From Escherichia coli (GTDB lineage: Bacteria > Pseudomonadota > Gammaproteobacteria > Enterobacterales > Enterobacteriaceae): a stretch of 64,000 bases of DNA. The position numbers were made by a program, and so were the translations under genes. Below, in pieces: positions 60,525 to 60,859 of this stretch. The notes beneath the pieces were generated by a model. The model was not told the origin of the DNA. It did no database searches and worked only from the letters and a program-made list of their open reading frames with translations. The stretch lies in the NCBI RefSeq assembly GCF_003019035.1, contig NZ_CP027447.1; one strand, 5' to 3'. Positions within the stretch are counted from its first letter, which is position 1; each line of letters opens with the position of its first letter.

Positions 60525-60671
60525 GGTCTTCTCGCAAGTCGAAAAATATGACGCTACTTTAGCGTAATTGCTTGATTTTGTCGCTGACGGCGAAGGAGAA
60601 GAAAATTCAGGAAATGGATAAAGTAGTTATTTAGAAATGAGATATTTTTGAAGGAAATTTTTTGGAGAAGA

Positions 60672-60689
60672 TGGTGCATCCGGGAGGAT
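60672..60689 (-). other. 18-nt fragment identical to the 3' end of tRNA-Arg(ACG) (truncated tRNA remnant)
   Basis: TGGTGCATCCGGGAGGAT matches the first 18 nt of each full tRNA-Arg copy (plus strand) and then diverges; lies 93 bp before the first intact copy. Confidence 0.6.
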
Positions 60690-60782
60690 GACTCACTGGC
60701 GTTCGCCCTTCGGGCCGTTGCTGGCGTGCGGTTAATATCGCTACCTCTTCGATACTTTCATTGCTGAAGGTTACGGAGAAGA

Positions 60783-60859
60783 TGGTGCATCCGGGAGGAT
60801 TCGAACCTCCGACCGCTCGGTTCGTAGCCGAGTACTCTATCCAGCTGAGCTACGGATGC
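60783..60859 (-). tRNA. argQ: tRNA-Arg (anticodon ACG), copy 1
   Basis: 77-nt cloverleaf, reverse complement GCAUCCGUAGCUCAGCUGGAUAGAGUACUCGGCUACGAACCGAG...CACCA; gene name assigned by position in the array only. Confidence 0.9.

What the first reader, a model, noticed from the sequence alone, without database searches (positions are those of the whole stretch)
60660..60790. Duplicated 3' end of tRNA-Arg upstream of the arg tRNA array
An 18-nt copy of the tRNA-Arg 3' end plus 3 leader bases (GATGGTGCATCCGGGAGGAT) occurs at 60669-60689, 93 bp from the first intact copy (60780-60800), forming a short direct repeat that brackets a unique segment. Partial tRNA 3'-end duplications are classic footprints of integrase-mediated insertion or excision at tRNA genes, or of unequal recombination within the tandem array.
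Basis: seen in the sequence. Interest (0 to 1): 0.35.

Follow-up and report, generated by a model that had tools for sequence, protein, structure and literature searches.

The report
Decayed tRNA-linked repeat after argQ
The extra copy of the tRNA-Arg 3' end is the tail of a long-known "tRNA-linked repeat" (raQ in E. coli K-12), a small structured RNA element transcribed after the last arginine tRNA gene; it is not a scar of an integrated element, and in this strain it is a partly deleted copy.

Summary
The repeat is real. It is a 26-nt exact direct repeat (60664-60689 = 60775-60800): 18 nt of the tRNA-Arg(ACG) 3' end plus 8 nt of 3' trailer. The tRNA operon is on the minus strand, so the fragment lies downstream of the last tRNA-Arg, not upstream.

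The bracketed segment is unique only within this window. Fragment plus segment form one unit of the tRNA-linked repeat (TLR) family, Rfam RtT. Egan and Landy described these repeats in 1978 and Rudd catalogued them in 1999. The K-12 arginine copies are named raQ, raZ and raV.

- The unit sits at this junction in 4735 of 5426 complete E. coli genomes and is absent from about 680.
- Units of 130-137 nt occur in arg arrays across Enterobacterales. None of the arg loci examined has an integrase next to the array.
- Intact units fold strongly (z -4.3 to -5.7), and three hairpins show compensatory changes.
- The closing helix pairs the tRNA-derived 3' end with an upstream complement that changes with the tRNA in the Arg, Lys, Tyr, Ser and Pro families.
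- The window copy has a 22-nt deletion, shared by 95 genomes, that removes that complement. It no longer folds better than shuffled sequence.

Verdict: already known, ordinary, low interest. The integrase reading is refuted. Recombination explains only the copy-number polymorphism.

The parts
60672..60689 (-). 18-nt copy of the tRNA-Arg(ACG) 3' end (RNA sense AUCCUCCCGGAUGCACCA: last 2 nt of the T-loop, T-stem 3' strand, acceptor 3' strand, ACCA). [quoted passage not shown]
   Evidence: Exact match to the 3' end of all four tRNA-Arg genes. The hallmark of TLRs is 18-19 bp identical to the upstream tRNA's 3' end (PMC8144298).
60664..60671 (-). 8-nt 3' trailer (RNA UCUUCUCC), identical to the trailer after the last tRNA-Arg (60775-60782). 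It extends the direct repeat to 26 nt.
   Evidence: family D2, two 100% copies. The other three tRNA-Arg copies have a different trailer (88% identity).
60690..60782 (-). Body of the TLR (93 nt). It is the shortened homolog of the ~115-nt K-12 raQ body. It contains the conserved core (RNA) CGCCAGCAACGGCCCGAAGGGCGAAC...GUGAGUC.
   Evidence: Alignment to the K-12 arg TLRs and tyrT rtT repeats. My covariance model built from 41 arg TLRs without this allele hits 60672-60782(-) at 37.4 bits, E 2.5e-7, the only hit in the window. Rfam RtT gives 17.5 bits, E 5.2.
60705..60715 (-). Conserved hairpin H4 (RNA GCCC-GAA-GGGC), retained in the window copy.
   Evidence: 98.8% of cells paired, with two pairs showing compensatory changes across 42 units. 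The core motif occurs once in the window.
60726..60727 (-). Junction of a 22-nt deletion relative to K-12 raQ (missing RNA GGCACCAGGAAGGAUAACGUUG). It removes the 5' strand of the closing helix and the 5' half of hairpin H3.
   Evidence: The allele is found in 95 of 5426 E. coli genomes. Fold z-score is -1.3 against -4.3 to -5.7 for intact units.
60783..60859 (-). tRNA-Arg(ACG), last gene of the operon (argQ position). Its 3' end plus trailer is the second copy of the 26-nt repeat.
60922..61278 (-). Three further tRNA-Arg(ACG) genes (60922-60998, 61061-61137, 61202-61278), separated by 62-64-nt spacers. This strain has no internal TLRs; K-12 has raZ and raV here.
61282..61374 (-). tRNA-Ser(GCU) (serV position), first gene of the operon.
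61437..61464 (-). Sigma-70 promoter-like site upstream of serV (consensus match only).
60551..60565 (-). The only intrinsic-terminator-like hairpin on the minus strand. It lies downstream of the TLR and just before the yqaB start. No terminator-like site lies between the last tRNA-Arg and the TLR, so the TLR is probably co-transcribed (inference).

Best explanation
The fragment is the 3' end of a tRNA-linked repeat (TLR; Rfam RtT family), orthologous to raQ of E. coli K-12. It lies directly downstream of the last tRNA-Arg of the serV-argVYZQ operon and is most probably co-transcribed with it.

A TLR is a structured RNA of about 130 nt. [quoted passage not shown]

Shown here:
- In intact units these 18 nt pair with a complementary strand about 45 nt upstream (GCACCAGGGAGGAU with AUCCUCCCGGAUGC).
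- The resulting helix has the same strand sequence as the stacked acceptor and T stems of the tRNA and ends in single-stranded ACCA.
- The helix encloses three small conserved hairpins.

Inferred:
- This tRNA-like end lets the tRNA-maturation machinery cut the element out of the polycistronic precursor. RNase E would cut in the trailer, 3' exonucleases would trim, and RNase P may cut at the helix base. This is as proposed for the rRNA-linked TLRs RrA, RrB and RrF.
- What the released RNA does is unknown.

In this window's lineage a 22-nt deletion has removed the 5' strand of the closing helix and half of the first hairpin. This copy is therefore most likely a decaying, non-functional relic.
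For: **Identity**
- Same locus and flanks as K-12 (gshA-yqaA-yqaB | TLR | four tRNA-Arg, tRNA-Ser | csrA), about 90% identity to K-12 with one 22-nt indel.
- K-12 carries three such units, each made of a body plus the 18-nt end. They are named raQ, raZ and raV among the 22 TLRs of K-12 (PMC8144298 supplement; family definition).

**Homology to the family**
- Rfam RtT matches the K-12 arg units over the full model at 22.8-33.8 bits, E 0.11 to 2e-5.
- The core GCAACGNCCCGAAGGGYGA is shared with the tyrT rtT repeats.
- My arg-TLR model finds the window copy (37.4 bits, E 2.5e-7) and also the Lys (63-77), Pro (45), Tyr (28-30) and Ser (17) TLRs.

**Conservation**
- 4735 of 5426 E. coli genomes carry the flank-fragment-body junction.
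- 97 stretches from Citrobacter, Enterobacter, Klebsiella, Salmonella, Pantoea, Erwinia, Pectobacterium and others give 154 distinct units, mostly 130-137 nt.

**Structure**
- Intact units have MFE z-scores of -4.3 to -5.7, and the closing helix is predicted without any constraint.
- Hairpins H3, H4 and H5 are paired in 95-100% of cells. Twelve pairs across the tested structure have changes on both sides, against 6.1 in shuffles and 4-6 with slid partners.
- The 5' strand changes with the tRNA: Arg GGGAGGAU, Tyr GGGGAAGGAU, Lys CGUGAAGGAU, Ser GGGGGGAU, Pro GAGGAU. Each is complementary to its own tRNA's 3' end and sits at the same anchor position.
- CaCoFold work also lists RtT as having covariation support.

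**Decay of the window copy**
- The deletion was mapped.
- Its z-score is -1.3 and the closing helix is lost.
Against: - No expression or processing data for the arg TLRs were available, so co-transcription and release are inferred.
- Within the arg family the 3' strand of the closing helix was fixed by my search pattern, so that helix shows conservation (8 core pairs, 85-100% paired) but no covariation.
- RNAalifold preferred a small local hairpin, AUCC-UCCC-GGAU.
- A swap test of bodies against non-cognate 3' ends did not give a clean diagonal. All the ends are C-rich and the bodies G-rich.
- The matching 5' strand could partly reflect descent from the tRNA rather than selection for pairing.
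- About 12% of E. coli genomes lack the terminal unit, and a strain lacking all 22 TLRs was built. Any function is therefore dispensable in the laboratory.
- The Rfam scores are below the RtT gathering threshold of 45 bits.
Confidence: 0.88

Rival explanations
1. Integrase att-site footprint. The 18-26-nt repeat would be attL/attR left by a tyrosine-integrase element that inserted in the tRNA-Arg 3' end, and the bracketed segment would be the remnant of that element.
For: - The identity block runs from the T-loop to the CCA end, a typical position for tRNA att cores (my knowledge of tRNA integration sites, not tested here).
- An empty-site-like allele exists in about 12% of genomes.
- The same window holds a real integrase island at ssrA, so such events do happen in this genome.
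Against: - No integrase or other mobile gene adjoins the arg array in this window or in the other annotated E. coli arrays inspected; in one strain (KTa005) IS1/IS3 transposase genes lie at the position of the array.
- The insert is only 93-117 nt and is conserved in sequence, length and secondary structure across Enterobacterales.
- It occurs after several tRNA-Arg copies within one array, and sometimes in tandem.
- It shares a core with repeats linked to Lys, Tyr, Ser and Pro tRNAs and to 5S rRNA.
Confidence: 0.02
2. Neutral scar of unequal crossing-over. The fragment would be what remains of a fifth tRNA-Arg truncated by recombination within the tandem array, with no structure or function of its own.
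For: - The array is recombinationally plastic. There are 3-4 tRNA-Arg genes and 1-3 TLRs per E. coli strain, and the terminal unit has been lost in some.
- The window copy itself has suffered a deletion and folds no better than shuffled sequence.
Against: - The sequence next to the fragment is neither tRNA nor the normal 62-nt inter-tRNA spacer. It is the conserved TLR body.
- Intact units show compensatory base changes and strong folding.
- The same boundary, 18 nt and 2 nt into the T-loop, is kept in over 150 distinct units.
Confidence: 0.05
3. Transcription-termination module. The C-rich, partly unstructured end of the TLR and its trailer would serve mainly as a Rho-dependent or backup termination region at the end of the tRNA operon. 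This is as described for the tyrT repeats and as suggested by the terminator-TLR-terminator layout at rrnB, serX, proK and lysQ. It is not exclusive of the main explanation.
For: - Terminal TLRs of Ser, Pro and Lys are flanked by duplicated intrinsic terminators.
- rrnB has the order T1-TLR-T2 (PMC8144298).
- No intrinsic terminator-like site lies between argQ and the TLR, or directly after it, in the window.
Against: - Internal TLRs (raZ, raV, and the four internal Lys units) lie between tRNA genes that must still be transcribed, so termination cannot be their general role.
- Nothing here tests Rho dependence.
Confidence: 0.1
4. Small protein-coding gene, analogous to tpr in the tyrT repeats.
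For: The conserved GGGAGGAU looks like a Shine-Dalgarno sequence. In the consensus of the arg units a 13-codon frame is open from UUG to UAA (my reading).
Against: - The K-12 arg units carry UAG in that frame.
- Variation is concentrated in hairpin loops and appears as compensatory stem changes, the signature of RNA rather than of a peptide.
- In the window copy the putative SD and start are deleted.
Confidence: 0.02

Closest known systems
raQ, raZ and raV: the tRNA-linked repeats of the E. coli K-12 serV-argVYZQ operon (Rudd 1999 catalogue; named in the PMC8144298 supplement)
   Same: Same locus, strand and flanks. Same 18-nt tRNA-Arg 3' end. The body is colinear with K-12 raQ over the query spanning the yqaB flank, TLR and tRNA 3' end (~90% identity with one 22-nt indel).
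   Different: - A 22-nt internal deletion removes the closing-helix 5' strand and half of hairpin H3. This is a minority allele, found in 95 of 5426 genomes.
- This strain has no internal units; raZ and raV are absent.
rtT / RtT RNA of the tyrT operon (Egan and Landy 1978; Rfam RF00391)
   Same: Repeat units placed after the tRNA and ending in the last 18-19 nt of that tRNA. Shared core AACGUUGC...GCAACGNCCCGAAGGGYGA...GAGUAAUCC. Same long-range helix logic.
   Different: - The tyr units are about 178 nt, carry an extra T-arm-like hairpin and overlap the tpr ORF.
- The arg units score below the Rfam gathering threshold (17.5-33.8 against 45 bits). PGAP therefore labels the Tyr, Lys, Ser and Pro units as RtT sRNA but leaves the arg units unannotated.
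RrA, RrB and RrF: TLRs downstream of 5S rRNA in rrnA, rrnB and rrnD (Stenum et al. 2021, PMC8144298)
   Same: Co-transcribed element ending in an 18-nt copy of the upstream gene's 3' end, proposed to direct RNase E processing. Shares the AACGUUGC-GCAACGGCCCGGAGGG core.
   Different: - They are linked to 5S rRNA and sit between two terminators.
- They bind Hfq and CsrA through GGA motifs. The 19 tRNA-operon TLRs scored below 0.01 in the same CsrA-binding predictor.
- My arg model gives only a weak match, 15 bits, E 0.29.
attL/attR duplications of tRNA 3' ends flanking integrase-borne islands (for example, the ssrA island in this same window)
   Same: A direct repeat of the 3' end of a tRNA-type gene that brackets foreign-looking DNA.
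   Different: Real islands are kilobases long, strain-specific and carry an integrase next to the RNA gene, as at 8290-9522 here. The arg unit is about 0.1 kb, conserved across an order and structured, and it has no integrase.

Membership tests
tRNA-linked repeats (TLR) / Rfam RtT | Lies in a tRNA or rRNA operon, immediately downstream of and on the same strand as a tRNA/rRNA gene | tested here: met
   The unit occupies 60664-60782(-), directly 3' of tRNA-Arg 60783-60859(-).
tRNA-linked repeats (TLR) / Rfam RtT | The last 18-19 nt are identical to the 3' end of the gene immediately upstream | tested here: met
   18/18 identical, plus 8 nt of shared trailer. Definition from PMC8144298.
tRNA-linked repeats (TLR) / Rfam RtT | Body homologous to other TLRs (conserved core hairpins) | tested here: met
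   The core TCGCCCTTCGGGCCGTTGC is present. The unit aligns with the K-12 arg and tyr units. My arg-TLR covariance model gives 37.4 bits, E 2.5e-7, and the same model detects the Lys, Pro, Tyr and Ser TLRs.
tRNA-linked repeats (TLR) / Rfam RtT | Reaches the Rfam RF00391 gathering score (45 bits) | tested here: not met
   Window copy 17.5 bits, E 5.2. No RtT hit at gathering threshold in the whole window. Even the intact K-12 arg units reach only 22.8-33.8 bits, so the threshold excludes the whole arg subfamily, not just this copy.
tRNA-linked repeats (TLR) / Rfam RtT | Long-range closing helix between an upstream strand and the tRNA-derived 3' end | tested here: not met
   Present in intact arg, Lys, Tyr, Ser and Pro units. 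Deleted in the window copy, where the best complement is 5 nt and spurious and the fold z-score is -1.3. The window copy is a degraded member.
tRNA-linked repeats (TLR) / Rfam RtT | Co-transcribed with the operon and released as a discrete RNA | not testable with these tools
   The only indirect evidence is that no terminator-like site separates the tRNA from the unit. The literature shows release for rtT and RrB, not for raQ.
Integrase-mediated island at a tRNA gene (attL/attR) | Tyrosine or serine integrase gene adjacent to the tRNA-proximal repeat | tested here: not met
   The flanks are yqaB/yqaA/gshA and csrA/alaS in the window's closest relative and in the other strains inspected.
Integrase-mediated island at a tRNA gene (attL/attR) | The bracketed DNA is strain-specific accessory sequence | tested here: not met
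   The junction is present in 87% of E. coli genomes. Homologous units occur across Enterobacterales.
Truncated tRNA pseudogene from unequal crossing-over | Sequence 5' of the fragment is tRNA-derived or is the normal inter-tRNA spacer | tested here: not met
   The adjoining sequence is the TLR body, unlike either the tRNA or the 62-nt spacer.

The most novel reading that the evidence does not exclude
TLRs as a class may be tRNA mimics with a cloverleaf-like outline: a 10-14-bp helix reproducing the acceptor and T-stem stack of the cognate tRNA, three hairpins in place of the T-loop, and a free NCCA end. The 5' strand is re-tuned to each tRNA (Arg, Lys, Tyr, Ser, Pro).

They would then be substrates or decoys for tRNA-end enzymes such as RNase P, RNase E, RNase T/PH and the CCA-adding enzyme, and would couple something to tRNA-operon transcription.

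Natural alleles make this directly testable. The 22-nt deletion seen here occurs in about 2% of E. coli genomes, and clean loss of the terminal unit in about 12%. I found no statement of this minihelix reading in the papers I could search, but the Rfam RtT structure already contains the long-range helix.
Probability: 0.3. Interest if true: 0.45.

Novelty: already known. Interest (0 to 1): 0.13.

Why it matters
For the scan, this is a false lead for mobile-element hunting. A partial tRNA 3'-end duplication next to a tRNA array in Enterobacterales should first be checked against the TLR/RtT family.

Two small practical points follow:
- The arginine TLRs fall below Rfam's RtT threshold and are unannotated in RefSeq genomes, so they will keep being rediscovered.
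- TLRs still have no known function in tRNA operons. The natural presence, absence and deletion alleles, together with the cross-family matching of the closing helix documented here, give a cheap handle for testing whether the tRNA-like end matters.

Tried and rejected
- **Rfam at gathering threshold.** No RtT hit in the whole window. Only the E-value mode gave the lead.
- **RNAalifold on 42 arg units.** It chose a local AUCC/GGAU hairpin rather than the long-range helix. Single-sequence MFE folds did predict the long-range helix.
- **Swap test.** Pairing TLR bodies with non-cognate 3' ends (RNAduplex energies and longest-helix matrix) did not give a clean diagonal, because all ends are C-rich and the bodies G-rich. 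I rely instead on the position-anchored comparison.
- **Counting the TLR-less allele with a junction query.** The count was confounded because BLAST pieces were joined. I estimated it (5413 - 4735) and from the 688 hits at 99% identity or better, and checked two examples.
- **Literature search for raQ, raZ and raV as words.** Nothing found. Papers on argVYZQ do not discuss the spacers.
- **Second copy of the ssrA 3' end (attR of the ssrA island).** None within 3 mismatches.
- **Peptide-coding reading.** Rejected, because of a stop codon in the K-12 copies and RNA-type covariation.
- **thrU-tyrU-glyT-thrT and metT operons of K-12.** The annotation shows no RtT feature there, and my model gave no hit in them.

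Full report
**1. What is in the sequence**

The window is E. coli. The region is 99.6% identical to strain SCU-301 and has the gene order gshA-yqaA-yqaB | tRNA array | csrA-alaS.

ARAGORN and Rfam find four tRNA-Arg(ACG) genes (60783-60859, 60922-60998, 61061-61137, 61202-61278) and one tRNA-Ser(GCU) (61282-61374). All are on the minus strand. This is the serV-argVYZQ operon, transcribed from right to left in window coordinates.

The 18-mer TGGTGCATCCGGGAGGAT is the reverse complement of the tRNA 3' end AUCCUCCCGGAUGCACCA. It occurs five times, four inside the tRNAs and once alone at 60672-60689. Shuffles expect 0.00 occurrences even with two mismatches allowed.

The exact repeat with the last tRNA is 26 nt (60664-60689 = 60775-60800, spacing 111). 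It includes 8 nt of 3' trailer that the other three copies do not share.

The observation therefore stands, with three corrections:
- The repeat is longer than reported.
- The extra bases are trailer, not leader.
- The fragment lies downstream of the array in the sense of transcription.

**2. The "unique" bracketed segment is a repeat unit**

In K-12 the same array carries seven copies of the tRNA-Arg 3' end: four tRNAs and three orphan fragments. Each fragment is attached to a body of about 115 nt that is homologous to window 60690-60782.

In order of transcription K-12 reads:
serV, argV, [body+18 nt], spacer, argY, spacer, argZ, [body+18 nt], spacer, argQ, [body+18 nt].

The window strain has only the terminal unit. 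That unit is 22 nt shorter than in K-12.

**3. It belongs to a described family**

Rfam's RtT model (RF00391) matches the K-12 units over its full length at 22.8-33.8 bits (E 0.11 to 2e-5). This is below the gathering score of 45. The window copy scores 17.5 bits.

An alignment with the tyrT rtT repeats shows a shared core, GCAACGNCCCGAAGGGYGA...GAGUNAUCC, followed by the 3' end specific to each tRNA.

Stenum et al. 2021 (PMC8144298) describe the family as follows:
- They are tRNA-linked repeats (TLRs), first seen by Egan and Landy in 1978 and catalogued by Rudd in 1999.
- K-12 has 22 copies at ten loci.
- The tRNA-operon TLRs have no known function.

Their strain table names the arginine units raQ, raZ and raV and lists a strain lacking all 22 TLRs. 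The finding is therefore the 3' end of the raQ ortholog.

I also built a covariance model from 41 arg units of other genomes, leaving out this allele. Its scores were:

| Target | Bits | E-value |
|---|---|---|
| Window 60672-60782(-), the only hit in 64 kb | 37.4 | 2.5e-7 |
| Intact arg unit | 137.5 | 1.3e-34 |
| K-12 Lys TLRs (four internal) | 63-77 | 3.9e-18 to 3.1e-14 |
| K-12 Pro TLR | 45 | 2.5e-9 |
| K-12 Tyr TLRs | 28-30 | 3.1e-5 to 8.5e-5 |
| K-12 Ser TLRs | 16-18 | 0.059 to 0.13 |
| rrnB TLR | 15 | 0.29 |

**4. Distribution**

Within E. coli:
- The junction of flank, fragment and body is present in 4735 of 5426 complete genomes.
- In roughly 680 genomes an intact tRNA-Arg abuts the yqaB-side flank directly. 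AHB5 and 21AH126 were checked.
- The 22-nt-deletion allele of this window occurs in 95 genomes.
- One strain has IS elements in place of the array.

Outside E. coli, I scanned 100,044 species genomes for the tRNA-Arg 3' end followed by a non-tRNA continuation.
- The scan returned 97 stretches, all from Enterobacterales. They include Citrobacter, Enterobacter, Klebsiella, Raoultella, Salmonella, Kosakonia, Pantoea, Erwinia, Brenneria and Pectobacterium.
- These yield 154 distinct units, nearly all 130-137 nt long. They follow one or several tRNA-Arg copies and are sometimes in tandem.
- None of the annotated E. coli loci inspected has an integrase next to the array.

It is largely met: the fragment is conserved well beyond E. 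coli, though about 12% of E. coli genomes lack it and one strain has IS elements at the array.

**5. Structure, and how it probably works**

The 3' 70 nt of the unit are highly conserved, while the 5' half varies.

Intact units fold far better than shuffles. K-12 raV, raZ and raQ have z-scores of -5.4, -4.3 and -4.8, and an Enterobacter unit -5.7. Without any constraint, the MFE structure is a closing helix between GCACC.AGGGAGGAU and AUCCUCCC.GG.UGC. It encloses three hairpins and leaves ACCA free.

On 42 diverse units:
- The three hairpins are paired in 95-100% of cells and show compensatory changes.
- Twelve pairs have changes on both sides, against 6.1 +/- 1.0 in shuffles and 4-6 with slid partners.
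- The eight core pairs of the closing helix are each paired in 85-100% of the units. Because I had selected units by an exact 3' end, this helix cannot show covariation within the arg family.

Across families it does covary. At the same anchor position, immediately 5' of AACGUUGC or GAGAA, the upstream strand is complementary to its own tRNA's 3' end from that end's first nucleotide:

| Family | Upstream strand |
|---|---|
| Arg | GGGAGGAU |
| Tyr | GGGGAAGGAU |
| Lys | CGUGAAGGAU |
| Ser | GGGGGGAU |
| Pro | GAGGAU |

In Tyr and Lys, and in Arg (GCACCAG against the tRNA's GCAUCCG), the complement runs past the T-stem into the acceptor strand. That join does not exist in the tRNA gene itself. 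The helix therefore resembles the stacked acceptor/T-stem "minihelix" of the cognate tRNA.

My inference is that this end presents the same processing determinants as a tRNA, so the element is cut out of the precursor. RNase E would cut in the trailer and exonucleases would trim the 3' end. RNase P may also act, since from established knowledge it accepts minihelix substrates (not tested here). Stenum et al. propose RNase E recognition of the repeated 3' end for RrB. What the released RNA does is unknown.

**6. The window copy is degraded**

Relative to K-12 raQ it lacks RNA GGCACCAGGAAGGAUAACGUUG (junction 60726|60727). That is the whole 5' strand of the closing helix plus the 5' half of the first hairpin.
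- No alternative complement exists.
- The z-score falls to -1.3.
- The model score falls from about 137 to 37 bits.

Other short variants in the data set have lost variable 5' sequence or hairpin H5, not this strand. I conclude that this lineage carries a decaying raQ.

**7. Rivals**

- **Integrase footprint.** Refuted for the reasons in section 4. For contrast, the same window holds a genuine integrase island next to ssrA.
- **Neutral scar of unequal crossing-over.** This explains the copy-number polymorphism. It does not explain the conserved structured body or the fixed 18-nt boundary.
- **Termination role.** It cannot be general, because internal units sit between genes that are still transcribed. 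It may add to the terminal units, since the Ser, Pro, Lys-terminal and rrnB units are flanked by duplicated terminators. No terminator-like site lies between argQ and the unit here.
- **Peptide reading.** Contradicted by stop codons in K-12 and by RNA-type covariation.

**8. Verdict**

This is a known kind of element at a known locus, in a minority deleted allele. Interest is low.

The only mildly new material is two observations. The closing helix is re-tuned to each cognate tRNA across five families. Natural knock-out alleles are common enough to test whether that matters.

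Noticed in passing
window 7760-8122 (+) and 8290-21831: A tmRNA gene (ssrA) is followed 168 nt later by a 410-aa tyrosine integrase (Arm-DNA-bind_3, Phage_int_M and Phage_integrase domains). Further on are a MobA/MobL relaxase-like ORF (12875-14203) and a 1565-aa AIDA/pertactin autotransporter (17134-21831, minus strand). This looks like a genuine integrase-borne island at ssrA. No second copy of the last 23 nt of ssrA was found in the window within 3 mismatches, so the far end was not located.
   Followed up: partly
L002 1643-2464 (K-12 arg array); L106, L107, L108, L109, L006: RefSeq/PGAP labels the Lys, Ser, Pro and Tyr tRNA-linked repeats as 'RtT sRNA' but leaves the three arginine units unannotated. 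They score 22.8-33.8 bits against the Rfam RtT gathering score of 45. This is an annotation gap for a whole subfamily.
   Followed up: yes
L004 1720-1821 (strain AHB5) and L111 (strain 21AH126): In strains lacking the terminal repeat, the spacer between the last two tRNA-Arg genes is 102 nt. It has the normal 62-nt spacer, an unrelated 29-nt insert (RNA UCAUCAGUGAUGAUGGUUAAGAUGGAUUU) and only the first 12 nt of a repeat body. This is a further array allele that I did not explain.
   Followed up: no
L045, L101, L103, L026 (Pantoea and other Enterobacterales): Some arg arrays carry two or three repeat units in direct tandem with no tRNA between them. Some units have single-base changes in the 18-nt end, for example GCACCC or CCUUCC.
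   Followed up: partly
L108 1800-2653; L109 4000-4289; L106 2578-2830: The terminal Ser, Pro and Lys repeats duplicate not only the 18-nt tRNA end but also the following intrinsic terminator. They also contain an extra hairpin built from the T-arm 5' half (GGUUCGAC) and its complement. These longer units look like rearranged pieces of their own tRNA.
   Followed up: partly
window 24849-24924 (-): A lone tRNA with anticodon CAU, called Met by ARAGORN. By position between ssrA and the arg array it may be the ileY-type tRNA-Ile2 (lysidine-modified CAU). This rests on my knowledge of the K-12 map and was not tested.
   Followed up: no
window 57823-57894 (+) and 49089-49166 (+): Rfam gathering-level hits to MicA sRNA (83.9 bits) and to naRNA4, a REP-derived nucleoid-associated RNA (61.6 bits). 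These are ordinary features for this part of the E. coli chromosome.
   Followed up: no
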